A stretch of 64,000 nt of DNA. It comes from an uncultured Gemmatimonadaceae bacterium. Its GTDB lineage: Bacteria; Latescibacterota; UBA2968; UBA8231. The first letter of the stretch is position 1, and the number at the start of each line of letters is the position of its first letter. Location: positions 10,671 to 74,670 of the forward strand of contig CAZFMY010000014.1 in NCBI GenBank assembly GCA_964520345.1. Direction: 5' to 3'. The position numbers were made by a program, and so were the translations under genes. The notes under the pieces are model-generated. The model was not told the origin of the DNA and made no database searches. It worked only from the letters and a program-made list of their open reading frames with translations. Below are positions 21,948-49,542 of this stretch, in pieces.

Positions 21948-24900
21948 GTGGACAAACGAAACCTATACAACCTGATTTTTGTACTTTTCAGCTTGCCGGC
22001 GACCCTATTCGCCGCCCGGTTGGAACTGCGTCAATCCGGCACCGGAGCCACGGAAGCCTCCGCGCTAGTCGGTCAGGAGATCGAAATCGAGGTCTGGATC
22101 GATTCGGAAAGCGAAGAGCTTTCCGGAGCGGCGATCTTTCTCAGCTTTGACGAAACGCGCTTCGCGCTGGTTGATGAGGATCGGGTCCCCCAGGCAGGTT
22201 TCCAGCCCTTCGCTCCGGGCGAGTTTCTGGGCAACGGCGAAATCTATCGCAACTATCTGCTTGCAGAGGATGACCCGGCTGCCGGGGCCCCCGGCACCCA
22301 ACTCGACTATAGCGTGGTCCGCGCCGGTGACCAGGGGCAGGGACCTATCGCCTCTTTTCGCCTGCGAACATTGGCCCCCACTATAGGGAGTGCGATCCGC
22401 ATCGACGAAAGCGGGGTGCGCGAGACGCGTTTGTTCCTGCCCGATGGTCAGCAACGCGCTTTCCGCTTCATCACCCCATTCAACCTTACTGTAAAGGGCA
22501 TCTCGATCAGCGGCCTGCCCGAAAAACTGATCCTGGCTCGGGGCAGTACCCGGGAACTAGACCTGAACGATCTGGTTTTCGATCCGCTCTACGGCCCCGA
22601 CGACCTGACCTGGACCATCTCCAAAACTGCGGCGCTGACCTCGACTCGCGAAGGCAATAATCTACTCTTAGAGACCCCTGCCGACGCTTCACCGTGGGAA
22701 CGATTGGTGCTCACAGTCGCCAATCCCGAAGGACAGACTGCATCTGATACGATCGATATATTCGTCAACGCAGCCCCCACCCTGAGCGATATAGGCCCAC
22801 TGGTCTTTGCCGAAGACGAATCCTACGAAATCCCCCTCGACGCCCTAGTCGACGATCCCGATAGCCCCACCGAGTCGCTCACCTGGAGCGGTTGGAGCGA
22901 AAGCCCGAAAATCGAAATAGAACTCACCGGATCGCCCGCTAGCGCCCATATTGTTCCGCAACCCGAGTGGCACGGTCAGGGACAGATCACACTGATGGTC
23001 CAGGACAACTACGACTTCGCCGATACCCTGCACCTCGAGGTCTCAGTCGATCCGGTCAACGATGCTCCCCGTCTGCTCTCTTCTCCCAACCTGCGCCTGA
23101 CCAGCGGCACTCAGGATAGCAGCCTGGTACTTGCGGAACTGATCGCCGACATCGAAGATCCATCCAGCGCGTTAAAGTTTTCCTGGAGCGGCAACGAGCG
23201 GGTCGGACTGGAGTTCCGCAACGAACGACTGATTCTGAGCAGTCCTGCGGATTGGGAAGGCCTTGAAGAAATCACTCTGGTAGTAGAAGATTCGGGAGGG
23301 CTGACCGATACCGCTCTGCTGACCGTAACGGTTGTTCCCTCCCTGCCCCCGGCTCTCATCGCCCCTCCCCAGCGGCTGGGCCTAGCAGCAGGAGAGCACC
23401 ACCTGCTGGTATTGGGCGACCTTGCCGTCGATCCCGACAATCGCGCCGAAGACCTGGTCTGGACCGTACATGGCCATACCTACCTGAGCGTGCAGTTCAG
23501 CGGCGGCAACCTAGCCCGGATCGAAGCCCCAGCTAATTTCATCGGGATCGAGACTCTGACGTTCTCGGTTGCCGACCCCTCGGGCAGCAGTAGTGCTTTC
23601 GATCTGATCGTCTTCGCGGCCTCGACCGACGGCGGCCCGCTACTCGCAGAACTGCCTGAGATCCAGATGTCGCTCCTCGGAGTGGATACTTCGATCGACC
23701 TCGACCACTACGTCTTCGACCCCGACCACACCCATGCCGAATTGGCCTTCTTCCTACCCGTACTCGACGAGGTCGAGCTTCGAGTCGACCCGCTGACTCA
23801 CTTGCTCATAGTAGACCCCGGCGCCAATGCTCAACCCGGCCTGCTGGAGTTGGAAGTGCGCGTCGTCGACCCGGATGGTCACGAGGCGGTACAGATTCTG
23901 CGCCTTGAACTTCTCGGCGAAAACAACCTTGCTGCACCCTCTTTCGACCTGGCTGAAATTCCCAGTTTCACCCTCATCACTGGCAAGATCCACTCCTTCA
24001 GTCTCGACGCCTTTGTCGTCGGCGACGTCGAACCAGCAACGGTCGTCTGGCAAGCCCAGGGCCAGCAAAACCTGATAGTCGCCATCGACCCGGCCACTCG
24101 CCAGGTCAGCGTGCACTCGGCCGATGCATGGATCGGCAACGAGGAAATCACTTTTATCGCCGAGGCTCCCGATCTGCCGCCGCGGGCGCGCACGGTCCGG
24201 ATCGCTATCATCGCCGACCCTAATTCTCCACCTTTGAGCATCGTTCCCGAACTCAATGCCCTGCCCCCACTGCAAATCGAGGCAGGAACCTTTGATCAGA
24301 CCCTGGACCTCAACACTTTTCTCAGCAACGCCGACGCAGCCGATTTCACCTGGAAATTGAGTGGCGGCACGCATGTCCGCGCACTGGTCGATACGGAAAC
24401 CTACCACCTGCTGGTCTTTACCGACGAGGGGTTTAGCGGCGAGGAAACCCTCTTGCTCATCGGCACACTGACCGATGGCACTCGCCTCGAAACCGCGCTA
24501 GAGGTGGAGGTGTATTCCCAGACCCTGAGCTTTGCCCTCAATCCACAGACCGAAGTTCCCCTCTTCGCCGGCGCCGCCACTTTGCGCCTGCCCTTCGATC
24601 AACTAGTTAGCGGCGATATCGATCCATCTCTGCTCACCTGGGTCGCCAAAGGCCTGCAACCAATATCGGCATCTTACGATTCACAGGATCAGACTCTGGT
24701 CCTGACGCCCGACACCCCCTGGCAAAGCAGCGATCTCATTGAACTAGTCGCCATCGATCCCCAGGGCAACGAATACACCGGAATTGTTCGAGCCCAGGTC
24801 TTCCCGGCTGATGGGAGCGCCGGTCTGGAAAGCGAGGACTTCCAGCTCGTGATCCTGCCCAATCCCCTGCAGCCCGAATACGTCGACCTCTACCTCATCA

Positions 24901-25160
24901 GCCGACTCGACCATAGCGAAGCCCCAATCCTGCGTCTAGCAGACGGCGCCTGGAACGACCTGACCACTAGTGCTCACAGTGCTGGAATCTGGCGGGCTAG
25001 CTACGTTTTTGCACCCGGCCAACGGGGTCAATTCGAATTCCTGGCTCTCAGCTTCGACACCGATAACGAGCTATTCAAATCCATGCAGACCTGGAGTCTG
25101 ACCAACACCAAAAAAATCGCCGCCAAATACACAGGCGGCTATGGGTGGCCTGCGGATTAA
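21948..25160 (+). CDS. Large secreted protein: N-terminal cohesin-like module, eight ~96-aa Ig/cadherin-like repeats, degenerate CTD-like tail
   Basis: GTG 21948 lies 7 nt after GGGAGGA (21934..21940) and gives the signal-like VDKRNLYNLIFVLFSLPATLFAARL. The listed TTG 21903 is less likely. Cohesin-like segment: GQEIEIEVWIDSESEELSGAAIFLSFDETRFALVD. Repeats carry the DPVNDAP and L.W..-type motifs. Confidence 0.85.
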   Translation: MDKRNLYNLIFVLFSLPATLFAARLELRQSGTGATEASALVGQEIEIEVWIDSESEELSGAAIFLSFDETRFALVDEDRVPQAGFQPFAPGEFLGNGEIYRNYLLAEDDPAAGAPGTQLDYSVVRAGDQGQGPIASFRLRTLAPTIGSAIRIDESGVRETRLFLPDGQQRAFRFITPFNLTVKGISISGLPEKLILARGSTRELDLNDLVFDPLYGPDDLTWTISKTAALTSTREGNNLLLETPADASPWERLVLTVANPEGQTASDTIDIFVNAAPTLSDIGPLVFAEDESYEIPLDALVDDPDSPTESLTWSGWSESPKIEIELTGSPASAHIVPQPEWHGQGQITLMVQDNYDFADTLHLEVSVDPVNDAPRLLSSPNLRLTSGTQDSSLVLAELIADIEDPSSALKFSWSGNERVGLEFRNERLILSSPADWEGLEEITLVVEDSGGLTDTALLTVTVVPSLPPALIAPPQRLGLAAGEHHLLVLGDLAVDPDNRAEDLVWTVHGHTYLSVQFSGGNLARIEAPANFIGIETLTFSVADPSGSSSAFDLIVFAASTDGGPLLAELPEIQMSLLGVDTSIDLDHYVFDPDHTHAELAFFLPVLDEVELRVDPLTHLLIVDPGANAQPGLLELEVRVVDPDGHEAVQILRLELLGENNLAAPSFDLAEIPSFTLITGKIHSFSLDAFVVGDVEPATVVWQAQGQQNLIVAIDPATRQVSVHSADAWIGNEEITFIAEAPDLPPRARTVRIAIIADPNSPPLSIVPELNALPPLQIEAGTFDQTLDLNTFLSNADAADFTWKLSGGTHVRALVDTETYHLLVFTDEGFSGEETLLLIGTLTDGTRLETALEVEVYSQTLSFALNPQTEVPLFAGAATLRLPFDQLVSGDIDPSLLTWVAKGLQPISASYDSQDQTLVLTPDTPWQSSDLIELVAIDPQGNEYTGIVRAQVFPADGSAGLESEDFQLVILPNPLQPEYVDLYLISRLDHSEAPILRLADGAWNDLTTSAHSAGIWRASYVFAPGQRGQFEFLALSFDTDNELFKSMQTWSLTNTKKIAAKYTGGYGWPAD
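22500..24803 (+). repeat. Eight tandem ~96-codon Ig-like modules (tandem-95-repeat-like), diverged
   Basis: Recurrent pattern (D/E)xLxW(T/S)...W.G.E.ITL.V.D..G...D...L.V.V, for example PDDLTWTISK, TESLTWSGWS, SALKFSWSGN, AEDLVWTVHG, PATVVWQAQG, AADFTWKLSG, PSLLTWVAKG. 768 aa / 8 = 96 aa per unit. Confidence 0.7.
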
Positions 25161-32945: not shown

Positions 32946-34562
32946 TCAACTCCCCGCCGCCCACCCACCGCCACCGGCGCGCACGCTCTGTGCTCGGCGC
33001 AGATATTCGGCAATATGAGCCATACCCCCGATCCGATCGTTATATGCGATCCGGTGCCCCATCTTTTTCAACTCCGCTACCAGTGCCTCATCCATATCAG
33101 GCCGCACCTCGATCGGCTCCTCAACCACCACGTGCAGTCGCGGCGCTTCGGCCGCTTCCTGCGGTCCGGCATCAAAGTCGATTATCCGCTGCGCCAGCTG
33201 CGCCCCCACTGCAATGATCCGCCGTCCGCCCGGTAGCCCGGTAGCCACATCGCGATCGGCCAACCGCAGGATCATCGGCGCAGTATTGTTAAGCGGGCCT
33301 TTATAGGGGGCAACCGAATTGATATGACCTGGGCGCGGATCGAGACGATTCATCCCATGATTGAGCACAATGCCCGTCCCTGCGACCACCACACCCGAGC
33401 CCAGATTGCCACCCTGGGTGATGGTCGCCGCGACCACATTGCCCTCGGCATCGGCCGTCGAGAGATGCAGCGTCTCGGGCACCGTCTGGCTCGACCATCC
33501 CCATGATTCGAGGTCCACCCGCTCGGGTGAATTTCGCAGCGCCTCGGCTCGCCCCATCGCATAATCGGAACTCAATAACCGCTCGATCGGCACCTCGGCG
33601 AAATCGGGATCGCCCAGATAGCGGATCCGGTCGCGCCAGACCAGCTTGAGAACCTCCGCCCAGCGATGCCAGTACTCGACCTCATTGTCGGCGACGGGTG
33701 CGAAGCCATCGAGCATCTGCAAGGCCTGCAAACTCGACAGGCAGCCATTGGGTAGAATCGGGCCATAGAGCTGCGCGTCGCGATAGGTTGCCCTATAGGG
33801 CTCGGTGAGCCGCGGCTCGAACTGAGCCATGTCCTCACGCGTCAAAATCCCCCCCATCTCCTGTACACACCCGACAATCTGCCGTCCCAACTCGCCTTCG
33901 TACATATCGCGCCATCCCAGTTCCGCCAACCGCTTAAGCGTCCGCTCCATATCCGGACGGTGCCAGATATCACCCGCCTGGGGCAAGCGCCCACCGGGCA
34001 AAAGATGCGCAGCCGAAGCCGGATAGCGCCTCAGTACGCCCTCCAGCAACGCGATATTCCGCGCCAATTCCGCACCGAATGGAAAACCATCCGCGACCAA
34101 GTGCTGCGAGGGGGCAACGATCTCGGTCCAGGCCAACTGCCCCCATTGCTCCCAGAGCGTGCCGATCCCCGCCATCTGCCCCGGCACCGCCACCGCGAGC
34201 GGCCCGTGAATATTGGCGTCGTCGACCACACTGCACTGGTATTCAAATTCGTTGATGCCCTTGGAACTCTCGCGTTCGGGCAGGACTTCATAGAGATCGT
34301 CTCGCGCTGCCGCGGGCGCTCTGGCATTGCTGTCCAATGACCAAACCCGCCCCGTCTTCCCCTCCAGGACCACTGCCACCAGTACATAACCGCCAATACC
34401 GTTTTTGTCGGGTGCCATCACCGCACAAGCCAGACTGGCCGCCGCCGCCGCGTCCATCGCATTGCCGCCCGCATCGAGTATCCGCGCTCCGATCCTGGCC
34501 GCCTCTGCTGGCCACGCAGCTACCGCACCTTTTGCACCTACAACTTCTTTGCCTTCAACCAT
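32946..34562 (-). CDS. ggt: Gamma-glutamyltranspeptidase-family protein (no signal peptide)
   Basis: GGNAMDAAAAA, nucleophile context PETLHLSTADAEGNVVAATITQG (compare E. coli QTTHYSVVDKDGNAVA), and GTGIVLNHGM. The N-terminus starts directly in the mature domain. Confidence 0.8.
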   Translation of the reverse strand: MVEGKEVVGAKGAVAAWPAEAARIGARILDAGGNAMDAAAAASLACAVMAPDKNGIGGYVLVAVVLEGKTGRVWSLDSNARAPAAARDDLYEVLPERESSKGINEFEYQCSVVDDANIHGPLAVAVPGQMAGIGTLWEQWGQLAWTEIVAPSQHLVADGFPFGAELARNIALLEGVLRRYPASAAHLLPGGRLPQAGDIWHRPDMERTLKRLAELGWRDMYEGELGRQIVGCVQEMGGILTREDMAQFEPRLTEPYRATYRDAQLYGPILPNGCLSSLQALQMLDGFAPVADNEVEYWHRWAEVLKLVWRDRIRYLGDPDFAEVPIERLLSSDYAMGRAEALRNSPERVDLESWGWSSQTVPETLHLSTADAEGNVVAATITQGGNLGSGVVVAGTGIVLNHGMNRLDPRPGHINSVAPYKGPLNNTAPMILRLADRDVATGLPGGRRIIAVGAQLAQRIIDFDAGPQEAAEAPRLHVVVEEPIEVRPDMDEALVAELKKMGHRIAYNDRIGGMAHIAEYLRRAQSVRAGGGGWAAGS

Positions 34563-34704
34563 CGCCTATTCAACTCGATTGAATTCCGCCTGAAAAACCA
34601 ACTCGCCGCAGTCCTGCACAGCAAAACCAAATTCGCCGAGCCGCTGCGCTTGGCACAAAGAGAAACACCGAATCCCCAACACATCAATCCGTCACCCTGA
34701 AAGT

Positions 34705-35793
34705 CTAGGGCAGAAAGGCCTTCGCCCGCTCCAATTTATCCGGCAAATACCTATCCATCACGTGATTCAAATCGTGCACTGCAAAAGCCTGCTGCTCCGC
34801 CCTGACACCGCCCTCCTTCAGTGCCAAGAGCGCCTCCTGCCACTTCTTGTAGTGCTGAACGAATGGATCGTTCTTCAGCGCATCGTCGATCCGCTTTATA
34901 TCTACTTCTGTCATCTTGTGCGTCGGCAGCTCGTAATCGGCAATATCATCGGGGGTAACGCCCAAGAAATGGGCCTTGGGCACACAAAACGCCTCGTTGA
35001 TATGCGCCGCATTGCCCGAACCAACCTTTAGGGTCCGATAGATATTGCAGATCCCATAGGGGTCGCAATCGACAAAAGCATAGACCGGAATATCCAGATC
35101 CTCGGACATCCGCCGAATAAAGCGCCGCGTCGCCCGGGTCGGCACTCCTCCCATCGACACTAGAATACAATCAGCTCGACGCCAGTAATTGTGCTTGACC
35201 AGACGCTGAAACATCCCCGCGGTCTCAATCGCCAATACAAACTTGGCGTCGGACTCGAAACGCAAATGCTCGACAGAAATAGGAATCGAATAGGCCCCGG
35301 AGCCGAATTTGGTACAGTCGATCGCCAATTCGTCGCCGCTGTCGCGATCTTCATCGTAGACCACCAAATTACCCGCCACCTCACCCCCCTTCTCCTCCGG
35401 TACAAAACCCAACTGCTCGCGATTGACCGAAAAAAACGCCTCGACATCATCGAGCACTGCATCCGACTCGGTCTGTTCGGCAAAGCGCACTTCTTCGTCC
35501 CAGCCCTTGGCCACGTAATAGGCTTCGCGCTTGGTGGCTATATCGTCGGTCTCGATCAGGTTTTTGGATAGCGCAATCATCTTCAGAGACTGCGCAAAAG
35601 TCTTGACCGTCGAAACCGCCAGAGTCCGCTCCTTGGTCTTGCGCCCGATCTGGAAGAATCCCGCCTTGGGATCGAATTTGACATTGCTCAAGTTGCGCAG
35701 CGGAAACTTCATCGATGGCTTCTGCTTCTTCAGGATACTATCGCGAATCTGCCTGGCCTCTTTGGCGATGAGCTTGAGCAGCGCCTGGTTCAT
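34705..35793 (-). CDS. top6A: DNA topoisomerase VI subunit A (Spo11/Top6A)
   Basis: Catalytic-Tyr motif KREAYYVAKGW. Toprim acidic residues in LAIETAGMF and FVDCDPYGI. VSMGGVPTRATRRFIRR. The start ATG overlaps the top6B stop (ATGA at 35790..35793). Confidence 0.9.
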   Translation of the reverse strand: MNQALLKLIAKEARQIRDSILKKQKPSMKFPLRNLSNVKFDPKAGFFQIGRKTKERTLAVSTVKTFAQSLKMIALSKNLIETDDIATKREAYYVAKGWDEEVRFAEQTESDAVLDDVEAFFSVNREQLGFVPEEKGGEVAGNLVVYDEDRDSGDELAIDCTKFGSGAYSIPISVEHLRFESDAKFVLAIETAGMFQRLVKHNYWRRADCILVSMGGVPTRATRRFIRRMSEDLDIPVYAFVDCDPYGICNIYRTLKVGSGNAAHINEAFCVPKAHFLGVTPDDIADYELPTHKMTEVDIKRIDDALKNDPFVQHYKKWQEALLALKEGGVRAEQQAFAVHDLNHVMDRYLPDKLERAKAFLP

Positions 35794-37415
35794 GAGCGGC
35801 TCCTCTCCAACATCCCTTTGAGATTGCTGGCCACCTCAGTGGTCTTCTTATCGCTATCGGACAAGATCTCCCCTAACGCCTCGGCGATGTGCTCGACATA
35901 CTGCGCGATATAGTCCTTTTTGCGCGCAGCCTCAGCCTCGCGTCGAGCGCGACCAATGTGCTCACCGACCCGCCGACCGCATTCCTGCAGCGCCAGACGG
36001 ATCTCCTTGATAATCTCGTCGTAGTGCGCCACCGCATCCTTGCTCTCCGAAGTAAAAGGCACCCACACAGAAGCCATGTGTACCATAACCACCAGAGGCC
36101 CCGATGGCAGCGCGCTCGAACTCTGACTGAGGCGGTAATTCCGCCAGTCGGTGTCGACCAGACTCTTGGTAATCGCGCAAGCTGAAGGCTGATAAAGCAG
36201 CGGCACTCGGTTGGCGAAGCGCATCAGCGAAATCGGACCTTCGGCATCGATATCTCCACCGTAGGCAATGGCCACTTCGATTTGAAATGGATTGCCGCGA
36301 TAGACCGCCGGCGGCCGAGTCGTTGAGGTGAAGAATTCCGCAGCGACATTTTTGCGCAGACTATCTACCAGCAGTTCATCACCGATCGGCGCGATGCAAT
36401 CGGTCGGCGGACGCATCAACTTGGTCGCATTGATTGCCTTGAAGAGCCGGTCGCTTTCGTCCTGGGCGATATTGCGCGGCCGCCCGTTGGGTTTGAGATC
36501 GGCCTTCTCACAGATCTCCTTGGCCACTCGCACCGAGACGCGGGAAAATTCCTGGGTCATAAAGCCCTGCAAGGTGCGATGTGGAGTACCCTGCAGCATC
36601 TTCATCAAGACCCCGAGTTCAACTCCGTAGGGATGCGGTTTGATTTCCTGGGCTTCCGGCGGCATCTCCTCGGTGCTGCGTCCGTAGACAACCTCCTTGC
36701 CATCCGGGGGCGTATAGAGCAAGGTCAGATGAGGGTTGGCCAACGCTGTCTGCCGCACGTATTCGTCCACCGATTGCCGACCGCGCTGATAGCGCGCCTC
36801 CATCTCGATTTCGACTTGAGTACCTTTGCCGCGCACCCAGTCGATTTGTTCATCGCGGACAATCTGCGGCTTGTTGCGGGTGGTATCGATCTGGATCTCG
36901 TAGTAGTGCGCTGACCGTCTGGGCCCGGGGCGCGAAATAACCCTGGTCGACTTGCCGGTTGTCAACTGCCCGTACATACTTGCTGCAGAAATACCAATCC
37001 CCTGCTGGCCACGCGACATGCGGAGCCGATGGAATTTCGAACCATAGAGCAACTTGCCAAAAATATTGGGAATCTGACTCTTGACGATTCCCGGCCCGTT
37101 GTCGACAACCCGCATCAGATAGCGGTCGTCGGCGAGTTGCTTGAGCACCACCTCGATCTCGGGCAAAATACCCGCTTCCTCACAAGCATCTAGACTATTG
37201 TCGACAGCTTCTTTTACCCCCGTGAGTAACGCCCTGCGCGGATTATCGAATCCGAGCAGATGACGATTGCGGCTGAAAAACTCAGAGACTGAAATTTCGC
37301 GCTGTTTGGCCGCCATCGACTGCGCAGTAGCCCGACCGTTGCGTGGGGGGGGTTCTTTGCCGTTAGCTGCTGTTCCGAGCAAATCTAGCTGGCCGGCGGC
37401 TTCTTTTTTACCCAT
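35790..37415 (-). CDS. top6B: DNA topoisomerase VI subunit B (GHKL/Bergerat ATPase + transducer)
   Basis: N-box KEAVDNSLDACEE, G1 box VVDNGPGIV, G2 box SRGQQGIGISAASMY. The 541-aa length is comparable to archaeal Top6B. Confidence 0.9.
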   Translation of the reverse strand: MGKKEAAGQLDLLGTAANGKEPPPRNGRATAQSMAAKQREISVSEFFSRNRHLLGFDNPRRALLTGVKEAVDNSLDACEEAGILPEIEVVLKQLADDRYLMRVVDNGPGIVKSQIPNIFGKLLYGSKFHRLRMSRGQQGIGISAASMYGQLTTGKSTRVISRPGPRRSAHYYEIQIDTTRNKPQIVRDEQIDWVRGKGTQVEIEMEARYQRGRQSVDEYVRQTALANPHLTLLYTPPDGKEVVYGRSTEEMPPEAQEIKPHPYGVELGVLMKMLQGTPHRTLQGFMTQEFSRVSVRVAKEICEKADLKPNGRPRNIAQDESDRLFKAINATKLMRPPTDCIAPIGDELLVDSLRKNVAAEFFTSTTRPPAVYRGNPFQIEVAIAYGGDIDAEGPISLMRFANRVPLLYQPSACAITKSLVDTDWRNYRLSQSSSALPSGPLVVMVHMASVWVPFTSESKDAVAHYDEIIKEIRLALQECGRRVGEHIGRARREAEAARKKDYIAQYVEHIAEALGEILSDSDKKTTEVASNLKGMLERSRS

Positions 37416-37503: not shown

Positions 37504-37533
37504 AATCTAAGAATCGGTACAAAACGCTGTCAA
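37504..37533 (-). promoter_or_regulatory. Candidate sigma70-like promoter for top6BA
   Basis: Minus strand: TTGACA (37533..37528), an 18-nt spacer, then TAGATT (37509..37504), about 90 nt upstream of the top6B ATG. Motif match only. Confidence 0.3.
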
Positions 37534-37572: not shown

Positions 37573-38235
37573 TCAGCGTTTACGCGCCAATGTCAACCCA
37601 TCCCCGATCGATAAAAGCGAGGCCTCGACCCGCTCGTCGGTATGTATTTTGGCGTTGAGAGCCCGAATCGCCACCGTACTCTCATCCTCTTCTCGAAGAT
37701 CTGCAGGCCTGCCCTGCCAGAGTACATTGTCGATCAGAATCAATCCGCCCTCTCGCACCAGTTGCAGACAGTGCTCGTAGTAGGCATCGTAATTTTCCTT
37801 ATCGGCGTCGATGAAAGCCATATCGAATCCACCCGCCCCACCTTCTTTGAGCATCCGGTCCAGCGTCTCCACTCCCGGCCCCAACCGCAACTCGACCTTG
37901 TCCGATACTCCCGCTTCCCGCCAATAGCGCCGGGCCACGCTCGTATACTCGTCACTCAGATCACAGGCGACCAACCGCCCTTGCTCGGGCAAGGCCAGCG
38001 CCATTACCGTACTGCTGTACCCGGTAAAAGTGCCCACCTCGACGATCCGCCTGGCCCCGATCGCCTTGACCAAGAGCGCCATAAACTGCCCCTGATCGGG
38101 AGAGATCTGCATTCCGCCCATCGGCATTTCCCGGGTCTCGTCCCGCAAGCGCTTCAACACATCCAGATCGCGCAGCGAATTGGCGAGGATATAGTCGTAA
38201 ATATGCGTTTCGATAAATCCATTTCGAGCACTCAT
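37573..38235 (-). CDS. Class I SAM-dependent O-methyltransferase (family 3, caffeoyl-CoA OMT / YrrM-like)
   Basis: VEVGTFTGYSS (SAM motif I), AFIDADKENY, LILIDNVLWQG. Confidence 0.8.
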   Translation of the reverse strand: MSARNGFIETHIYDYILANSLRDLDVLKRLRDETREMPMGGMQISPDQGQFMALLVKAIGARRIVEVGTFTGYSSTVMALALPEQGRLVACDLSDEYTSVARRYWREAGVSDKVELRLGPGVETLDRMLKEGGAGGFDMAFIDADKENYDAYYEHCLQLVREGGLILIDNVLWQGRPADLREEDESTVAIRALNAKIHTDERVEASLLSIGDGLTLARKR

Positions 38236-38262: not shown

Positions 38263-40389
38263 CTATTTTCCTGTAAATAAGAGTGTAATAATCGCGCGGT
38301 GAGCGGCGGGAATCTCACTGCCGCGCTCTACGAGACCGCGCAGTACGTCCTTATTATCCAGTTGATCCTGACGCAGGTACAAGTGAAGAGGCTGGCCGCG
38401 CTCCTCAACCCCCTCCATACCCAGCAGTCGGTACAGGCTCTCCACCAGCGAAGGCCACTCCCATTCCTTGTCCTCTGCTCTGCGGACCCCCAACCGCTCC
38501 TGCTCCTGCAATAGATCTTGCACCGCCGACAAGATATCGGCCCGCACCTGATCCTTCGCCCCAATCTGCGCGACGATCTCAGCGCCGACCCGGTCGGCCA
38601 CCTCACCTAAGTTTTTAAGAGCAGCCAACAACTCCCGGTACTTGTCGCTGCGATCTAGGCGCAAAAAAATCCCCGCCAAAAGTTCGAGCAATTCCGCACT
38701 GCCGGGATTGCTCCGACGTAACTCTTCGAAGCGCTGTAAGCACAACCTGAGCCGCTGCGGATCGGAGGAAAGCCGTAGAGCCTTATCGGGTATGAGCTCG
38801 GCCAGTTCATCGACCTGCGGTCGGAGATCTTCACCGACCACAAGCTCCCGCCCGCCCACCAAGTGCTCGTACTGCGGCACGTAGACCTCCCGATAACGCG
38901 GGTGGAGATCCAGCTTCTTTAAGATCTGCCCGAGCAGATAGGTATTAAAATCGGCCTCCACTCGATCCAGCTGCAAGTAGTGATCGTAGAAGATATCGGC
39001 CAATCCCTTGAGCAAAGCTTCATCATCATTGCTATAGCGCAATGCATTTTCCACTTCGAAAACCAGTTGTTTTAGATCGGCCATTCCGGCCAGATCCGCC
39101 AGCTTCAGCACCAAAAACCGCTTCCTGCGAAAAGGAAGATTCCAAAAATCGCAGTACCAATCGTGCACTTGCTGTTCTTTTCCACGCATGAGCCGTTTGA
39201 AATCCCGGCTGATACTGCCCGGAGCCCCCTCCGGTGGCGAGGTCGAAAAAGCCTGGATTTTTTCGGTGAACTCCACCAGCGGATAGTAGCCGGTACCGAA
39301 ATAGGTTCCTTCGTTCCAACCCAAGCGCGAAAAACCACTGATCCCCGGCTCACCGCGCTCGATCAGCATATCTATGTATCGATCGGTCTTGATCTGGACC
39401 CCGACCTCAAAGCGAAGTGCATCCTCCATATCGTGCAAAATCTCGTCGATGGTCTCCGGCACAATCGTCATAGCGCGATTTTCGCTGATGCGAAATGCCG
39501 TCGGATGGACGATGTCGCGATCGATATTGTAGTAAGTGGGATAGTTCAACGCATTTCTGATTGCAGTGCGTTTTTCACTGGCCCATTTCCGCTCCCGCAC
39601 CTCGTCGAAAAATTCATCGACCAGCGCAAAGGGGTCGGCAACTAGGACCTGATCGCGATCGAGGTCGAAAATCGGCTCTGAGTATTGCGCAAAAAACTCG
39701 TTGAATTCATTGTCCGGTTCGCGGTCGGAAAATTTGCGATGCTTATTCAGTTCCATTAATTGGTCGTAGACAAAAGCATGGCCCAGGGTGTAGTACTGGC
39801 GGAAGTGCTGCTGTGCTCGCCGAATCAATTCGATCAGCAGATGATAATCCAGGAGCGGCCAGGATTCCTGAATAATCACTTCGCTGATCGCCCAGTAGTC
39901 GTAACCTTTGGCGCGGGCTTCCTCAATAACCAGTTCCGGCATGTAGATCGTCTTGCGAGTTCGGCCGGTGTGGAAGGACTGGTGTTCGCGCGCGTGGCGA
40001 AAAACCAGCAGGTCCTCGCTCCTGACCAGCGTGACACTGACCCCCCATGCCAAGAGCGCATCGACCAGATATTCGGGCAACTGGCGCACGCCACCGTAGA
40101 AAAACCTGACCAGGTCATGGCCGGCGTGAAAGCGTGCCAGTTTCTCGTCTTCGAGCAACACCCCATCCCGCAACCGCGTCTGCTGCCCGAAAATCACCGT
40201 CTTGAGATGTGCGCGGAGTGCATCATTGACATCCGCATGGGAAATCTCTCCCTCGCGCAATCCGCTATTGGGCCGTTCGTCATCCAACCGCAGCTCTGTG
40301 CGATCACACTCTTCGTTCATTGTCTGCAACAAAATCCTACCGCTAAACGCATGAAAAAATCCCGCCGGATTCGAATCCGGCGGGATCAA
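38263..40389 (-). CDS. Hypothetical 685-708-aa protein with no recognisable domain
   Basis: Long uninterrupted ORF with coding-like composition, packed between neighbours (27 nt to the OMT gene). The start is ambiguous: TTG 40389 or ATG 40320 (MNEECDRT...). I recognised no known motif. Confidence 0.7.
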   Translation of the reverse strand: MIPPDSNPAGFFHAFSGRILLQTMNEECDRTELRLDDERPNSGLREGEISHADVNDALRAHLKTVIFGQQTRLRDGVLLEDEKLARFHAGHDLVRFFYGGVRQLPEYLVDALLAWGVSVTLVRSEDLLVFRHAREHQSFHTGRTRKTIYMPELVIEEARAKGYDYWAISEVIIQESWPLLDYHLLIELIRRAQQHFRQYYTLGHAFVYDQLMELNKHRKFSDREPDNEFNEFFAQYSEPIFDLDRDQVLVADPFALVDEFFDEVRERKWASEKRTAIRNALNYPTYYNIDRDIVHPTAFRISENRAMTIVPETIDEILHDMEDALRFEVGVQIKTDRYIDMLIERGEPGISGFSRLGWNEGTYFGTGYYPLVEFTEKIQAFSTSPPEGAPGSISRDFKRLMRGKEQQVHDWYCDFWNLPFRRKRFLVLKLADLAGMADLKQLVFEVENALRYSNDDEALLKGLADIFYDHYLQLDRVEADFNTYLLGQILKKLDLHPRYREVYVPQYEHLVGGRELVVGEDLRPQVDELAELIPDKALRLSSDPQRLRLCLQRFEELRRSNPGSAELLELLAGIFLRLDRSDKYRELLAALKNLGEVADRVGAEIVAQIGAKDQVRADILSAVQDLLQEQERLGVRRAEDKEWEWPSLVESLYRLLGMEGVEERGQPLHLYLRQDQLDNKDVLRGLVERGSEIPAAHRAIITLLFTGK

Positions 40390-40980: not shown

Positions 40981-42540
40981 TCAATCAATGGCTATAAGGC
41001 GGAAACCACCCGGTTCGAGCGGAATTTCAACCTCGAAGATATCGCTATTCAATTCTGCCACCTCAATCGGCTCCGCACTAGACGCATAGGCCACCCGCGC
41101 CCCTTTGACCACCATTCCGACCCTGCGGTCACCACCCTCATCCGTCCTGCGATTGACCACCAATAAGTGAGTTTCAACGTGGCCATCGCCAAAAAAACCC
41201 AGTTCGAGATCCCGATCCGCTGCGACCAGAATATCATTGGCTAAGATTGTCGGCACCTGTTTCACGACCTTGCTCGCCGTAGTCATCCAACCGTGGTAAT
41301 ACAAATCGCGTAAAGACTCGCTCAACTGCGCCAGACTATCATTGAGCGCCCGCACTCCGGCATAGGCATCGGTCGGCATACCTGCTGCATCCACCAATCC
41401 TCTATAGGTAATGTGGTCCTGACCGGAGTCTGGCCCCGAACTGTAGACAAAATAAATGATCCCCGACGCACCACGCGACAAAGCCAGTCCAGCCTGGACG
41501 CGAATCTCAGCCGCCGTGGGATAGCGATAAAAAAGATCACTCTGTCCACTGCACGAAGCATAGACTCTATCGGTGCGCAACTCGCTGTGCACCTGGATAA
41601 CCGCGTGCCAGCGGCCATCGCGAAGGCCGACCTGCCGAGTCGCCAGATTATAGGTTGTCAATAGCTCGTCCAGCGCCTGCTCGACCTTGCTTCGGTCATC
41701 TCTACAGACATCGCCGCGAAAAACATAGTGCTCGTGTTGCAGAACATTGGGCGGGTCATTGCCCTGGAAAAAGTGATCCAGGAACTCAGAGGCTTCAGCA
41801 CCGAGTTCGTGCAGCCCTGCTACTGCAAACGCCGGACGCGATGCATCTTCCCGACGCAAGATCTCGACCACCCTGGCCAACGCTGGGAAAAAACGGCTAT
41901 CGTACTGCTCGTGGGAAACCAGATATGCCTGAAAACCATGCGCATATCCTCCCCATTGACTTTGCAGTGCCCTCACCACCTCTGCAACCCCAGTGTCGAA
42001 GCCGGGTTTGGTTTCGCAACCTGGCACGGGCCAGCTTTGGGAATCCGTATTGCAGGTCGACCAGTTTTCCAACTTGTCGTGGTCGCTGAAACCCGGCGCG
42101 AGCGGCTCGTAAAACACGGGCAAACCCATGCCGTGCTCGTCGGCAAAACGCATCGCTAGTTCTTCGGTCCTGATCCAATCGCGTCCGAGCGGTGGATCGA
42201 CAAGATCCGTTAGATCCTCAACCGCCAGGGTATCTCTTTGCAGCCATTCGAGGAAATTGACGTTGAGATCGAGGACCAGATGTTGTTCCGCCACGCCGAA
42301 ATCGGTACGCCCTGCAGCCAGACCGGCCGGAAGCCATACCCCCCTTACCAATTCGCCGACGGTCACGTTCCTGGGGACAAAATCTACCCCCAACACCTCG
42401 ACGACCGCACCGATCACCGTTTTTCCTGCAGTCTGGCCACAAGCGGTCACCAGTAAAGCGACAGCCAGCCAGAGCAAGCAGCGATATTTTCTCTTAAAGG
42501 TTTTCAGGGATATACAAGCCCTATAGCATCTGCACATCAA
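40981..42540 (-). CDS. Uncharacterised lipoprotein, paralogue 1 (possible clan GH-A TIM-barrel glycosidase-like fold)
   Basis: Lipobox LLVTAC|G. Shares WLPAG, EWLQR, MPVFYEP, HEHYVFRGDV, WHAV.QV.SE, G..GI.YF.YSSG and THLLVVNRRT with the next gene. Confidence 0.75.
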   Translation of the reverse strand: MMCRCYRACISLKTFKRKYRCLLWLAVALLVTACGQTAGKTVIGAVVEVLGVDFVPRNVTVGELVRGVWLPAGLAAGRTDFGVAEQHLVLDLNVNFLEWLQRDTLAVEDLTDLVDPPLGRDWIRTEELAMRFADEHGMGLPVFYEPLAPGFSDHDKLENWSTCNTDSQSWPVPGCETKPGFDTGVAEVVRALQSQWGGYAHGFQAYLVSHEQYDSRFFPALARVVEILRREDASRPAFAVAGLHELGAEASEFLDHFFQGNDPPNVLQHEHYVFRGDVCRDDRSKVEQALDELLTTYNLATRQVGLRDGRWHAVIQVHSELRTDRVYASCSGQSDLFYRYPTAAEIRVQAGLALSRGASGIIYFVYSSGPDSGQDHITYRGLVDAAGMPTDAYAGVRALNDSLAQLSESLRDLYYHGWMTTASKVVKQVPTILANDILVAADRDLELGFFGDGHVETHLLVVNRRTDEGGDRRVGMVVKGARVAYASSAEPIEVAELNSDIFEVEIPLEPGGFRLIAID

Positions 42541-42577: not shown

Positions 42578-43930
42578 CTAAGGTCCGCGGTCCGCATCAC
42601 TCGCAACTACCAGCAAACGAAATCCGCCCGCGGCCAGTTCCACTGCTACGGCACCGTCCTCGACGACCAGGACCTCCCCCGTAACCGCATCGCTGACCTT
42701 CCCCCCTTTGACCTCCAGCACGGTGCTGCGCGGCTCCCAGGTACGCCGGTTGACCACCAGCAGATGCGTCTGCTGCACTTTATCGCCGAAGAGTCCGAAT
42801 TCCAGATCCTCATCGACGCTGGATAACAGGTCGTTGTCCACCAATGCTCCAGCCCCGAATCCTCGATGAAAATAAAGCCCCGCGAGTAGTGGACTCAGCA
42901 CCTGTAATTGCCGATTGAGTTCCTGCACCGCCGCATAAGTGGCCGTCGGCGCTCCATCCCGATCCACCAACCCCTCGTAGAACCGCGTCTGCACAACCTG
43001 GCCCCGGTCGTCGCGCACTTGCTCGATACCCGAACTGTAGAGGAAATAGACGATCCCGGCAGCGCCCCGCGTCAACGCCAACCCGACCTGTACCGAGATC
43101 TCGGCCGCCGACGGCTTGCGATAATAGATTTTGGTGCCCCGCACCTCACTCTGGACCTGAACGACAGCATGCCAGCGCCCCCAACGGCCCTTGAGATGTG
43201 CAGCGACCTGGTCGTAACCGGAAACCAGCGCACTCAGTTTGCGCTGCAGCGCAGCGCCGGCAGCAGGGACATCGCCGCGAAATACATAGTGCTCGTGCTG
43301 AAAGACCGGAGGCGGCCCCCCCTCCTGGAAAAAAGCGTCGGCGAAAGCATGACTATCCGAGTAGTGATCCAGGCGGCCCACGGTCAGCGCCGGCCGCAAG
43401 GAGTCCACCTTCCCAAGCGCAGCGACGACCTCCGCCAGCGCCTGGTAGTATTCCGAGCGGTAGTCCTCGTGCCCCACGAGGTAGCCCTGAAATCCCGGTG
43501 CTCCCTCCCATTGCGATTTGAGCGCCGCTACCCGCTGACCCACCGAGTCGGCAAAATCCTCGTCGAGCGGGGAACGCGTAGCCCAGTTCTGCAGCTTATC
43601 GTAGGGAGTATAACCGCGCGGTTCGTAAAAAACCGGCATCTGCACTCCGTGCTCATTGCACCAGGCCATTGCCCGTGCTTCGGCCGTCTCACCATCCGAT
43701 TCGGACCGCTGCAACCATTCGATCTGATTGAGTCCCAATTCGCCCAGCAGCGCCTGATCCTCCGCGCTGAAGCGATAGCGATCCAACCCCGCCGGCAACC
43801 ATGCACCGACAACGAGTTCACCGACGGGTACTCGGCTCGCTGCAGCAGCAGCCCCATCGACCGTGTTCCATCGCCCACATCCAAGTGCGATCAGTAGCGC
43901 AGCCAGCAACCACAAACGATCTGGCCTCAC
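42578..43930 (-). CDS. Uncharacterised lipoprotein, paralogue 2
   Basis: Lipobox LLIALGC|G. Same conserved blocks as paralogue 1. The start ATG overlaps the MazG-like stop by 4 nt. Confidence 0.75.
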   Translation of the reverse strand: MRPDRLWLLAALLIALGCGRWNTVDGAAAAASRVPVGELVVGAWLPAGLDRYRFSAEDQALLGELGLNQIEWLQRSESDGETAEARAMAWCNEHGVQMPVFYEPRGYTPYDKLQNWATRSPLDEDFADSVGQRVAALKSQWEGAPGFQGYLVGHEDYRSEYYQALAEVVAALGKVDSLRPALTVGRLDHYSDSHAFADAFFQEGGPPPVFQHEHYVFRGDVPAAGAALQRKLSALVSGYDQVAAHLKGRWGRWHAVVQVQSEVRGTKIYYRKPSAAEISVQVGLALTRGAAGIVYFLYSSGIEQVRDDRGQVVQTRFYEGLVDRDGAPTATYAAVQELNRQLQVLSPLLAGLYFHRGFGAGALVDNDLLSSVDEDLEFGLFGDKVQQTHLLVVNRRTWEPRSTVLEVKGGKVSDAVTGEVLVVEDGAVAVELAAGGFRLLVVASDADRGP

Positions 43931-47960: not shown

Positions 47961-48036
47961 GGCTCTTTAGCTCAGTAGGTAGAGCAGGGGACTGAAAATC
48001 CCTGTGTCCCCGGTTCAATTCCGGGAGGAGCCACCA
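47961..48036 (+). tRNA. tRNA-Phe (anticodon GAA), CCA encoded
   Basis: Cloverleaf folded by hand: acceptor GGCTCTT/AGGAGCC, D-arm GCTC/GAGC, anticodon stem GGGGA/TCCCT with loop CTGAAAA, T-arm CCCGG-TTCAATT-CCGGG, discriminator A, then CCA. Confidence 0.95.
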
Positions 48037-48043
48037 TTAATCT

Positions 48044-48075
48044 AACCCTCTGCTACGGCAGGGGGTTACTTTTTT
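48044..48075 (+). terminator. Rho-independent terminator after tRNA-Phe
   Basis: AACCCTCTGC-TACG-GCAGGGGGTT (one G-T wobble), followed by ACTTTTTT. Confidence 0.7.
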
Positions 48076-48139
48076 CATAGTAGTACCATACGGATACTCT
48101 AGTTTTAGGTCAATACATTCTCCCTTTCAACTGATAAAA

Positions 48140-48192
48140 GGCAAAAGAAGAAGCGGGGCAACACTCTCTGCCGCCCCGCTTCTTCTTTTGCC
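48140..48192 (-). terminator. Perfect 20-bp hairpin, likely terminator of the SnoaL-like gene
   Basis: GGCAAAAGAAGAAGCGGGGC (48140..48159) and GCCCCGCTTCTTCTTTTGCC (48173..48192) are exact reverse complements with a 13-nt loop. On the minus strand CUUUU follows. The hairpin lies 45 nt past the stop at 48237. Confidence 0.65.
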
Positions 48193-48236
48193 ATAGCTTA
48201 ACTCAACCAGAGCTTATTGACACCTTGACCTTGGGA

Positions 48237-49091: not shown

Positions 49092-49137
49092 GATAAAAAA
49101 CTCCTGCCAAAGATTGTTAAAAGCATTTGAAGCGCGA

Positions 49138-49422
49138 TTAATGTCTTGCCACCAGTGCGTCGACAATTGGCCCTACTTCCTCATCTGTTACCACTGGGTG
49201 GATCTCAAAATCAACCAAATCATTAAATTTGATACTCCAGAGTTGTAGAGATTCTACTGAATCCGTCTCGACTACAATGCACGCCCACTTAGTCAAAAGA
49301 GAATGGTATCGGGCAACCAATTTCATGTCGCCAAATTCTCCCTTCTCGGTCTCTTCAACGAAACGCTTGACCAGGGTACCCATATTCCCCGATTGGTATG
49401 ACGCAGTAACTGCAAATAGCAT
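49138..49422 (-). CDS. DUF3303-family small protein
   Basis: MLFAVTASYQ...LQLWSIKFNDLVDFEIHPVVTDEEV matches the W...W.DLVDFEI.PVV signature I recall for DUF3303. Confidence 0.6.
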   Translation of the reverse strand: MLFAVTASYQSGNMGTLVKRFVEETEKGEFGDMKLVARYHSLLTKWACIVVETDSVESLQLWSIKFNDLVDFEIHPVVTDEEVGPIVDALVARH

Positions 49423-49495
49423 GAAACACCTCCTGCCAAAGGTTTAAGAGAATGATAGAGCACACAATTAGCGCGCGCTATTCAGAGGAAAAGAC

Positions 49496-49542
49496 TTATT
49501 GCTGACGAGGTAATTGATTCACGAAGCACCTTCTGCCAAAGG
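49496..49542 (-). pseudogene. Decayed 5' fragment of a DUF3303-like gene (leader plus 8 codons)
   Basis: Minus strand CCTTTGGCAGAAGGTGCTTCGTG matches the DUF3303 leader CCTTTGGCAGGAGGTGTTTCATG at 20/23 positions. Downstream, CAATTACCTCGTCA matches CAGTTACTGCGTCA at 11/14. The fragment reads GTG AAT CAA TTA CCT CGT CAG CAA TAA. Confidence 0.35.

What the first reader, a model, noticed from the sequence alone, without database searches (positions are those of the whole stretch)
34705..37415. Complete type IIB topoisomerase VI operon (top6B-top6A) in a bacterial genome context
Both subunits look intact. Top6B carries the Bergerat N-box (EAVDNSLDA), G1 (DNGPGI) and G2 (GQQGIG) motifs. Top6A carries the catalytic Tyr motif (REAYYV) and the Toprim acidic residues (ETAG, DCDPYG). 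The genes overlap by ATGA, as in archaeal operons. Topo VI is characteristic of Archaea and of plants and some protists, and is only sporadically reported in Bacteria. The same contig and strand carry murA, anmK, glnD and T9SS-CTD proteins, so an archaeal origin for the contig is very unlikely. Which physiological role it takes over here (for example decatenation in place of Topo IV) is unknown.
Basis: partly seen in the sequence, partly recalled or inferred. Interest (0 to 1): 0.65.

Follow-up and report, generated by a model that had tools for sequence, protein, structure and literature searches.

The report
Bacterial topoisomerase VI operon, intact
The window carries an intact, strongly conserved two-gene DNA topoisomerase VI (an enzyme typical of archaea) in the chromosome of an uncultured marine bacterium; this is real, but it is one more example of a known and already database-annotated phenomenon.

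Summary
top6B (35790-37415, minus strand, 541 aa) and top6A (34705-35793, minus strand, 362 aa) overlap by ATGA. All catalytic residues align with solved archaeal Topo VI structures. HMMs place the pair in canonical Topo VI, not Topo VIII, Mini-A or a JetD-like nuclease.

The context is bacterial (MurA, AnmK, GlnD, Lon, HflX, T9SS-type tails). GC and codon usage are native. The same locus was assembled at 99.8-99.98% identity in eight independent metagenomes, five of them spanning both operon borders, so the contig is not chimeric. Eleven related species, labelled Latescibacterota or Gemmatimonadota by depositors, keep the same synteny. Top6A is the most conserved protein nearby (dN/dS about 0.02-0.05).

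Bacterial Topo VI is published (3 genomes in 2009, 17 families in 2024). Close relatives of this protein are already named "DNA topoisomerase VI" in GenBank. This FCB-type lineage and Acidobacteriota are missing from the 2024 survey. The genome scan confirmed 439 matching stretches, and 68 of the best 80 carry bacterial labels.

Verdict: a new member of a known kind, of low-to-moderate interest. Whether it replaces Topo IV could not be tested.

The parts
35790..37415 (-). top6B, the ATPase subunit of Topo VI (541 aa). It has a GHKL/Bergerat fold (E69 general base, N73, D105, G1 at 105-110, G2 at 136-141), an H2TH region (about 250-330) and a transducer (336-499) with switch Lys K459. There is no C-terminal Ig-like domain and no intein.
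   Evidence: Pfam and NCBIfam. Contiguous alignment of residues 31-525 to M. mazei 2Q2E_B at 8e-157, 47.5% identity. Residue mapping to S. shibatae E38/N42/D76/K427 and M. mazei E44/N48.
34705..35793 (-). top6A, the DNA-cleaving subunit (362 aa). It has a 5Y-CAP/winged-helix domain with R89 and catalytic Y93, an all-beta domain, a Toprim domain with E190, D242 and D244, and a T2BI box RAEQQAF at residues 331-337.
   Evidence: Pfam TP6A_N, Topo_VI_alpha and Toprim. Match to 1D3Y at 8e-103, 53% identity over 300 aa, with R99/Y103/E197/D249/D251 all aligned to identical residues. T2BI motif definition from PMC7671362; position.
35790..35793 (-). ATGA start/stop overlap of top6B and top6A, suggesting translational coupling. 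An SD-like GGAGAGGA lies at 35808-35801, 7 nt upstream of the top6A ATG.
   Evidence: Sequence read directly. The same junction occurs in L002, L004-L007, L010 and L012. L001, L003 and L008 instead have 9-12 nt gaps, and Acidobacteriota have roughly 70-460 nt gaps, mostly about 70-180.
37504..37533 (-). Sigma-70-like promoter candidate (TTGACA-18-TAGATT, 10 of 12 matches), about 90 nt upstream of the top6B start, in the 157-nt intergenic gap after the O-methyltransferase gene.
   Evidence: Consensus scan. Weak evidence only: the region's number of promoter-like sites equals the shuffle expectation.
34602..34625 (-). Terminator-like hairpin (9-pair stem followed by TTGGTTTTTC), 80 nt downstream of the top6A stop codon and before the GGT gene.
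   Evidence: Consensus scan. A pattern match only.

Best explanation
This is a canonical, functional type IIB DNA topoisomerase VI encoded as a two-gene chromosomal operon. The host is an uncultured marine bacterium; depositors label its relatives Latescibacterota, Gemmatimonadota or Handelsmanbacteria, which points to the FCB group. By homology, two Top6B and two Top6A subunits form an A2B2 enzyme. Top6B dimerises on ATP and captures one DNA duplex. The Top6A dimer (Tyr93 with the Mg2+-binding E190/D242/D244) transiently cuts a second duplex, and the first duplex is passed through the break. The result is relaxation of supercoils and, preferentially, decatenation. The operon is not a recent import or an assembly artefact. 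It is compositionally native, sits in a conserved housekeeping neighbourhood in at least 12 species of the clade, and is under very strong purifying selection. I infer that it is a core, probably essential enzyme for chromosome segregation that works beside gyrase. I put about 55% on it filling the role Topo IV has in other bacteria. Shown here: sequence, motifs, family membership, context, synteny and selection. Inferred: enzymatic activity, quaternary structure and physiological role.
For: Family and residues. Both proteins match full-length, and every catalytic and ATP-binding residue is conserved. The DNA-sensing elements shown to be essential in M. mazei are retained: the KGRR loop as R211-G212-R213, WKxY as W424-R425-N426-Y427, and stalk Arg R481 (PMC5922973). 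Native composition: GC 0.54-0.57 against a window value of about 0.57; GC3 0.67-0.69; codon-usage distance is within the range of the neighbours. Not chimeric: eight independent ENA and JGI metagenome contigs are colinear with window 24705-45793 at 99.83-99.98% identity in single alignments, and five of them (L081-L084, L087) span both operon borders; L085 stops 6 bp inside the upstream promoter-like element, and L086 and L088 end inside top6B and cover only the downstream border. Vertical inheritance: the order MurA-DUF362-unk450-unk708-top6B-top6A-(GGT)-PyrRedox is conserved in 11 species-representative MAGs. The clade gets 100/100 bootstrap support in both subunit trees. Selection: top6A dN/dS is 0.02-0.05 and top6B 0.04-0.11, against MurA 0.07-0.10 and GGT 0.13-0.17. 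Top6A dN is 0.032-0.037 against MurA 0.097-0.099 for the same genome pairs. Role: M. mazei Topo VI is a preferential decatenase (PMC8837201 abstract). In the 2024 survey, all Topo VI-bearing bacteria outside Pseudomonadota and Terrabacteria lacked Topo IV, and M. mazei Topo VI is reported (as unpublished data) to complement an E. coli parE-ts mutant (PMC11302465).
Against: No activity, expression or complex formation was measured; everything functional rests on homology (47-53% identity to characterised archaeal enzymes). The genome's gyrA/gyrB/parC/parE content could not be inventoried. Seven of the 17 published Topo VI-bearing bacterial families do keep Topo IV. Top6A falls below the cut-offs of all six narrow NCBIfam Top6A equivalog models (best 443 bits against 675), although it passes all three Pfam domain thresholds. 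One H2TH basic residue (M. mazei R263) is Thr here, and the KGRR loop is one residue shorter. Synonymous sites are near saturation, so the dN/dS values are approximate. Organism identity rests on depositor labels only.
Confidence: 0.85

Rival explanations
1. The enzyme is a functional Topo VI, but it acts in addition to an intact Topo IV. It would have a specialised or redundant role, such as handling particular replication or transcription intermediates, rather than being the cell's main decatenase.
Against: In that survey the triple-enzyme genomes were confined to Pseudomonadota and Terrabacteria, and all other lineages lacked Topo IV. Top6A is more constrained than the essential MurA in the same genomes, which fits a non-redundant role better.
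Confidence: 0.35
2. The operon is foreign to this chromosome: archaeal contamination, a chimeric assembly joint, or a very recent horizontal acquisition on an island.
For: Topo VI is typical of archaea. Related archaeal sequences (DPANN, Methanosarcinales-labelled MAGs) are 54-58% identical in Top6B.
Against: Eight independent assemblies reproduce the locus at over 99.8% identity, five of them across both borders. Eleven other species share the synteny. GC, GC3 and codon usage are native. There is no integrase, tRNA or repeat at the borders. True archaeal loci have aIF1A and KH-domain genes upstream, which are absent here. No relatives occur on bacterial plasmids or phages.
Confidence: 0.02
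3. It is not a topoisomerase but a Top6A-derived nuclease system: a Wadjet JetD / MksG-type defence nuclease, or a Spo11-like double-strand-break maker with a degenerate B-like partner.
For: Top6A gives a weak PADLOC hit to JetD (25 bits, 1.8e-6), limited to the Toprim region at residues 172-255.
Against: The hit is the expected remote Toprim homology. There are no jetABC or mksBEF genes nearby. The partner is a full Top6B with intact N-box, G1, G2, general base and switch lysine. Both proteins match Topo VI models end to end.
Confidence: 0.03
4. It belongs to another type IIB subfamily carried by mobile elements, either Topo VIII or Mini-A.
For: Both subfamilies occur in bacteria (PMC7671362).
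Against: Topo VIII is described there in terms of N-terminal (B-like) and C-terminal (A-like) moieties of one protein; that it is a single fused polypeptide is my own recollection rather than an explicit statement in the passages read. [quoted passage not shown] Mini-A is about 300 aa, has xWELDAL, has no B partner, and is viral. Here there are two genes, RAEQQAF (the R/KxExxA/S type), a TP6A_N domain, and a chromosomal housekeeping context.
Confidence: 0.01

Closest known systems
Archaeal DNA topoisomerase VI (M. mazei 2Q2E; S. shibatae 2ZBK; M. jannaschii Top6A 1D3Y)
   Same: The two-gene B-then-A arrangement and domain order are the same. All catalytic, Mg2+-binding and ATP-binding residues, the switch lysine, the T2BI box and the WKxY/stalk DNA-binding elements are conserved. 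Identity is 47.5% (Top6B vs M. mazei) and 53% (Top6A vs M. jannaschii).
   Different: The host is a bacterium. Top6B lacks the C-terminal Ig-like domain of M. mazei (541 aa against 621 aa), as reported for all bacterial Top6B proteins tested (PMC11302465). The KGRR loop is RGR, one residue shorter. Top6B carries a 28-residue N-terminal extension that is conserved within the clade.
Published bacterial Topo VI (17 families: Pirellulaceae, Anaeromyxobacteraceae, Nitrospiraceae, Bdellovibrio and others; Allen & Maxwell 2024)
   Same: The enzyme family is the same, and the inference of archaeal ancestry with spread among bacteria is the same. Its Top6A is of the type whose nearest solved relative is the M. 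jannaschii (Methanococcales) enzyme.
   Different: The lineage here (an FCB-type marine clade labelled Latescibacterota, Gemmatimonadota or Handelsmanbacteria) is absent from that paper and its supplement, as are Acidobacteriota. Here there is also evidence of clade-wide synteny and strong purifying selection.
Bacterial topoisomerase IV (ParC/ParE)
   Same: It is the likely functional analogue: ATP-dependent relaxation and decatenation beside gyrase (PMC2647321; PMC11302465).
   Different: It is an unrelated architecture (type IIA, 4-nt overhangs, against type IIB, 2-nt overhangs). Note that NCBI names Top6A relatives 'DNA topoisomerase IV subunit A', which is a misnomer and does not indicate homology.
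Topo VIII, Mini-A, and JetD/MksG
   Same: They share the Toprim and 5Y-CAP catalytic core.
   Different: Topo VIII is a single protein with N-terminal (B-like) and C-terminal (A-like) moieties, while Mini-A and JetD/MksG have no Top6B-type partner. They also have different T2BI boxes and a mobile-element or defence-operon context, none of which applies here.

Membership tests
DNA topoisomerase VI (type IIB) | Separate B and A subunits encoded in tandem (B upstream of A) | tested here: met
   ORFs 35790-37415 and 34705-35793 lie on the same strand with an ATGA overlap.
DNA topoisomerase VI (type IIB) | Top6A 5Y-CAP/winged-helix domain with catalytic Tyr preceded by a conserved Arg (RxxY/FY), including the N-terminal part that Topo VIII and Mini-A lack | tested here: met
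   R89 and Y93 align with M. jannaschii R99 and Y103. Pfam TP6A_N covers residues 64-129. The alignment to M. mazei Top6A starts at residue 13.
DNA topoisomerase VI (type IIB) | Toprim domain with E...DxDxxG metal-binding residues | tested here: met
   E190, D242 and D244 (DCDPYG) align with E197, D249 and D251. PF21180 matches at 3e-58 over the full profile length.
DNA topoisomerase VI (type IIB) | T2BI box of the Topo VI type (R/KxExxA/S) | tested here: met
   RAEQQAF at residues 331-337 aligns with M. jannaschii R338-A-E340-Q-Q-S343.
DNA topoisomerase VI (type IIB) | Top6B GHKL ATPase with N-box (general-base Glu, Mg-binding Asn), G1 and G2 boxes | tested here: met
   E69 and N73 align with S. 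shibatae E38 and N42 and with M. mazei E44 and N48. D105 aligns with D76. DNGPGI and GQQGIG are present.
DNA topoisomerase VI (type IIB) | H2TH domain and transducer domain with switch lysine | tested here: met
   PF09239 matches at 1e-57 over residues 336-499. K459 aligns with S. shibatae K427. The alignment to 2Q2E_B through the H2TH region is continuous, and a weak NFACT_N hit falls on residues 250-329; that this hit reflects an H2TH-type fold is my interpretation, not a tool result.
DNA topoisomerase VI (type IIB) | Curated whole-protein HMM cut-offs | tested here: inconclusive
   Top6B passes TIGR01052 (543 bits against 381) and PRK04184 (701 against 274). Top6A passes all three Pfam domain cut-offs but is below every one of six NCBIfam Top6A equivalog cut-offs (best NF003337 at 443 bits against 675). 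Those models appear to be narrow, lineage-specific ones.
DNA topoisomerase VI (type IIB) | A2B2 heterotetramer with ATP-dependent strand passage and 2-nt staggered cleavage | not testable with these tools
   This needs biochemistry. No multimer modelling was run.
Topo VIII | One protein with a B-like N-terminal moiety and an A-like C-terminal moiety (fused-polypeptide description partly from memory), RVELNAM box, plasmid or integrated-element context | tested here: not met
   There are two genes, the box reads RAEQQAF, the context is a housekeeping chromosome, and there are no bacterial plasmid relatives.
Mini-A | About 300-aa A-only protein, xWELDAL box, viral or proviral context | tested here: not met
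   The protein is 362 aa with a full N-terminal 5Y-CAP and an adjacent Top6B. There are no phage relatives and no PHROG hit for the A subunit.
Wadjet JetD / MksG defence nuclease | JetD-type protein encoded with jetABC / mksBEF | tested here: not met
   There is only a 25-bit partial Toprim hit and no SMC-like neighbours.

The most novel reading that the evidence does not exclude
Topo VI is not a sporadic import in Bacteria. It would be the mainstream, vertically inherited and essential decatenase of whole uncultured lineages, having replaced Topo IV. These lineages would include this marine FCB-type clade, much of Acidobacteriota, Planctomycetota and others, all belonging to one large bacterial Top6B radiation. 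In addition, the A subunit exists in two deeply divergent types that have been swapped independently of B, in both bacteria and DPANN archaea.
Probability: 0.4. Interest if true: 0.45.

Novelty: new member of a known kind. Interest (0 to 1): 0.25.

Why it matters
It adds a well-supported case to the short published list of bacterial Topo VI. The case is native, syntenic across a clade, and more constrained than MurA. It comes from a lineage (FCB-type marine MAGs) that the most recent survey did not cover. Together with the many Acidobacteriota and Planctomycetota hits, it suggests that bacterial Topo VI is considerably more common among uncultured bacteria than the literature states. That matters for the open question raised by Allen & Maxwell (2024) of what Topo VI does in bacteria and whether it substitutes for Topo IV. 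It also matters for any use of Topo VI or Topo IV as drug targets or phylogenetic markers. It does not reveal a new mechanism or a new kind of system.

Tried and rejected
1. I looked for an accessory gene conserved next to top6BA across phyla, a possible bacterial counterpart of plant RHL1/BIN4. I clustered all ORFs of 81 loci by all-against-all BLAST. Only lineage-specific neighbours emerged. Examples are an unannotated ~150-250-aa ORF family recurring upstream in 17 mostly Acidobacteriota loci, and in archaea two upstream ORF families that I read by eye as an aIF1A-like protein and a KH-domain protein (none of these three was run through any HMM library). Nothing is shared with the window clade.

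2. The conserved upstream 708-aa protein was tested against Pfam, NCBIfam, PADLOC, PHROGs and PDB sequences. There were no meaningful hits, so I make no claim of linkage to Topo VI.

3. Mobile-element carriage was tested. There are no bacterial plasmid hits and no phage hits, only three haloarchaeal megaplasmids.

4. The defence-system reading rests only on a weak JetD Toprim hit.

5. A type IIA inventory (gyrA/gyrB/parC/parE) was not possible.

6. A literature search for Topo VI in Acidobacteria, Latescibacteria or Gemmatimonadetes returned only community-profiling papers.

7. The low-GC patch beside tRNA-Phe was checked for an integrase or att repeats. None were found.

8. Structure prediction was not run. 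I judged it unnecessary given about 50% identity to solved structures over the full length.
Full report
OBSERVATION

top6B is at 35790-37415 (minus strand, 541 aa) and top6A at 34705-35793 (minus strand, 362 aa). The top6A ATG overlaps the top6B TGA as ATGA. An SD-like GGAGAGGA lies 7 nt upstream of that ATG. All six quoted motifs were located at defined residues.

FAMILY ASSIGNMENT

- Top6A carries all three Pfam domains of the family: TP6A_N, the all-beta domain, and the Top6A/Spo11 Toprim domain at 3e-58 over the full profile.
- Top6B carries HATPase_c plus the Topo VI-B transducer at 1e-57.
- Top6B exceeds the curated NCBIfam equivalog cut-offs: PRK04184 at 701 bits against 274, and TIGR01052 at 543 bits against 381.
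- Top6A matches six narrow NCBIfam Top6A models strongly (best 443 bits) but stays below each cut-off. I read this as the models being lineage-specific, not as a sign that the protein is aberrant.

Comparison with solved structures:

- Top6A matches M. jannaschii Top6A (1D3Y) at 8e-103, with 53% identity over 300 residues.
- Top6B matches M. mazei Top6B (2Q2E_B) at 8e-157, continuously over residues 31-525, with 47.5% identity.
- In Top6A, R89 and Y93 correspond to M. jannaschii R99 and Y103. E190, D242 and D244 correspond to E197, D249 and D251.
- In Top6B, E69 and N73 correspond to S. shibatae E38 and N42. D105 corresponds to D76, and K459 to K427.
- The T2BI box reads RAEQQAF (residues 331-337). 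This fits the Topo VI form R/KxExxA/S, not the Topo VIII form RVELNAM or the Mini-A form xWELDAL (PMC7671362).

The DNA-sensing elements shown by mutagenesis to be essential in M. mazei (PMC5922973) map as follows:

- The KGRR loop is retained as R211-G212-R213, one residue shorter.
- WKxY is retained as W424-R425-N426-Y427.
- The stalk arginine is retained as R481.
- Two of the three H2TH basic residues are retained. M. mazei R263 is Thr here.

Top6B has no C-terminal Ig-like domain. The 2024 survey reports the same for bacterial Top6B proteins.

CONTEXT

The window is ordinary bacterial chromosome. It holds GlnD, Lon, HflX, a SpoU methylase, an SBP_bac_5 protein, GGT, MurA (TIGR01072, 458 bits), AnmK, an M16 peptidase and tRNA-Phe. 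It also holds two giant proteins with T9SS-type tails. No type IIA topoisomerase gene is present.

The operon's GC (0.54-0.57), GC3 (0.67-0.69) and codon usage cannot be told apart from those of its neighbours. A sigma-70-like site lies about 90 nt upstream of top6B, and a hairpin followed by a T-run lies 80 nt downstream of top6A. These are consistent with a self-contained transcription unit, but they are pattern matches only.

NOT A CHIMERA, NOT A RECENT IMPORT

- The exact Top6A protein is encoded on 16 public contigs.
- Eight of them, from different ENA and JGI samples, are colinear with window 24705-45793 at 99.83-99.98% nucleotide identity in single alignments. Five (L081-L084, L087) span both operon borders. 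L085 stops 6 bp inside the upstream promoter-like element, and L086 and L088 end inside top6B, so those three cover only the downstream border cleanly.
- Eleven species-representative MAGs have Top6B at 73-87% and Top6A at 83-94% identity. They keep the order MurA-DUF362-unk450-unk708-top6B-top6A-(GGT)-PyrRedox.
- This clade has 100/100 NJ bootstrap support for both subunits.

Purifying selection is strong:

- top6A dN/dS is 0.02-0.05, and top6B is 0.04-0.11.
- MurA is 0.07-0.10, GGT 0.13-0.17, and the upstream unknown protein 0.12-0.25.
- Top6A dN (0.032-0.037) is about a third of MurA dN (0.097-0.099) in the same genome pairs.
- dS is near saturation, so the ratios are approximate.

TAXON

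Depositors label the clade Gemmatimonadota, Candidatus Latescibacterota, Candidatus Handelsmanbacteria, or in one case Planctomycetota. NCBI places Latescibacterota in the FCB group, which fits the T9SS-type tails. I did not verify the placement with marker genes.

WIDER DISTRIBUTION AND PHYLOGENY

- Six peptide patterns from Top6B retrieved 439 confirmed stretches in the species-level genome collection.
- Of the best 80 loci, 68 are bacterial by label. They include Acidobacteriota (the largest group), Planctomycetota, Thermodesulfobacteriota, Myxococcota, Abyssobacteria and Krumholzibacteriia. The other 12 are archaeal: DPANN and two Methanosarcinales-labelled MAGs.
- In the Top6B NJ tree, the bacteria-versus-archaea split has 98/100 support.
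- Only 789 clusters at 50% identity reach E<=1e-30 among 1.84 billion representatives, so the family is compact.
- No accessory gene is conserved beside the operon across phyla.
- No relatives occur on bacterial plasmids or phages.

MECHANISM (INFERRED)

The enzyme would be an A2B2 type IIB topoisomerase. ATP-driven dimerisation of the Top6B GHKL domains captures a T-segment. Top6A Tyr93, with the Toprim Mg2+ site, cleaves the G-segment, and strand passage follows. This relaxes supercoils and decatenates.

M. mazei Topo VI is a preferential decatenase (PMC8837201). In the 2024 survey, all Topo VI-bearing bacteria outside Pseudomonadota and Terrabacteria lacked Topo IV. I therefore favour a Topo IV-like segregation role beside gyrase, at about 55%. 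This was not testable here.

RIVALS

- Chimera, contamination or recent transfer is effectively refuted.
- Topo VIII and Mini-A fail their defining features.
- A JetD/MksG-type nuclease reading rests only on a 25-bit Toprim hit, with no jetABC genes nearby.
- The live rival concerns the role only: Topo VI acting alongside an intact Topo IV.

NOVELTY

- Bacterial Topo VI was noted in 3 of more than 500 genomes in 2009 (PMC2647321) and in 17 families in 2024 (PMC11302465).
- Members of this protein's 90% cluster are already named 'DNA topoisomerase VI' in GenBank, or misnamed 'DNA topoisomerase IV subunit A'.
- The 2024 paper and its supplement do not mention Latescibacterota, Gemmatimonadota, Acidobacteriota or any Bacteroidota/Fibrobacterota lineage.
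- This is therefore a new lineage for a known phenomenon: a new member of a known kind. A specialist would not be surprised. I score interest at 0.25.

SIDE OBSERVATIONS

1. Top6A comes in two deeply divergent types that do not track Top6B. Woesearchaeota loci L062 and L064 share 76% Top6B identity but only 37% Top6A identity. L062's A subunit is 76% identical to that of a Methanosarcinales-labelled MAG. Planctomycetales Top6B groups with other bacteria (98/100), but their Top6A groups with DPANN and M. mazei (99/100). This suggests A-subunit exchange. The caveats are NJ trees, sampling biased by Top6B similarity, and L062 being a 3.9-kb contig with a partial A gene.

2. Several of the nearest 50% representatives carry LAGLIDADG inteins inside the GHKL domain. 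The window's gene has no intein.

Noticed in passing
Loci L046, L052-L080 (notably L062 vs L064) compared with window 34705-37415: Top6A and Top6B histories are discordant. All 80 loci have Top6B 54-87% identical to the window's. Their partner Top6A proteins are bimodal: about 60-94% (the window's own clade at 83-94%; most other bacteria, two Methanosarcinales-labelled MAGs and one Woesearchaeota at about 60-69%) or about 30-36% (Planctomycetales/Phycisphaerae and most DPANN). L062 and L064 (both Woesearchaeota) are 76% identical in B but 37% in A. NJ bootstrap support for the conflicting splits is 98/100 (B) and 99/100 (A). This suggests A-subunit exchange independent of B.
   Followed up: partly
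Proteins P0193, P0194, P0195, P0197, P0215 (nearest 50%-identity representatives of Top6B): Top6B relatives at 48-57% identity are 780-1150 aa long because an intein is inserted in the GHKL ATPase domain, near query residues 97-133. Four of the five inteins carry a LAGLIDADG homing endonuclease. The window's Top6B is intein-free.
   Followed up: partly
Window 34705-35793 and its database relatives: NCBI names many Top6A orthologues 'DNA topoisomerase IV subunit A', a name inherited from the PRK04342 models. This misnomer hides bacterial Topo VI from text searches and could be mistaken for ParC.
   Followed up: partly
Window 37573-38235 (minus strand): A class-I O-methyltransferase gene (Methyltransf_3, 2e-70) sits between the conserved 708-aa unknown gene and top6B. 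It is present in all same-species contigs (L081-L087). It is absent from all 11 related species, where about 270-430 nt of intergenic DNA take its place. This looks like a lineage-specific insertion directly upstream of the operon.
   Followed up: partly
Window 32946-34562 (minus strand): The gamma-glutamyltranspeptidase gene immediately downstream of top6A is present in L001, L002, L008 and L009. It is missing in L003-L007 and L010, so it varies in presence within otherwise conserved synteny.
   Followed up: no
Window 38263-40389, 40981-42540, 42578-43930 (all minus strand): Three clade-conserved proteins have no match in the libraries they were scanned against: Pfam, NCBIfam, PADLOC and PHROGs for all three, and PDB sequences for the 708-aa protein only (apart from one negligible PADLOC hit for it, MTase_I at 16 bits, E 6e-4). 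The 519-aa and 450-aa proteins are paralogues of each other. The 708-aa protein lies directly upstream of top6B throughout the clade. No evidence links any of them to Topo VI.
   Followed up: partly
Window 10249-15903 and 15900-21653 (minus strand): Two tandem, overlapping giant ORFs (1884 and 1917 aa) have no recognisable domains except a C-terminal FlgD_ig / T9SS-type sorting tail. They are probably secreted surface proteins. Another large Big_9/cadherin-like protein lies at 21903-25160.
   Followed up: no
Window about 48000-50000, next to tRNA-Phe at 47961-48036 (plus strand): This is a low-GC patch (0.46-0.47 against about 0.57 elsewhere) directly after the tRNA-Phe gene. It contains a SnoaL-like gene, with a ThuA-like gene starting at its downstream edge. 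No integrase and no att-like duplication of the tRNA end were found.
   Followed up: partly
Archaeal loci L055, L061, L062, L070, L071, L074, L076, L077 (upstream of top6B): DPANN archaea show a conserved arrangement upstream of top6B-top6A: two small ORF families that I read by eye as an aIF1A-like gene and a KH-domain gene (neither was scanned against an HMM library). This arrangement is a handy marker that separates true archaeal Topo VI loci from bacterial ones.
   Followed up: no
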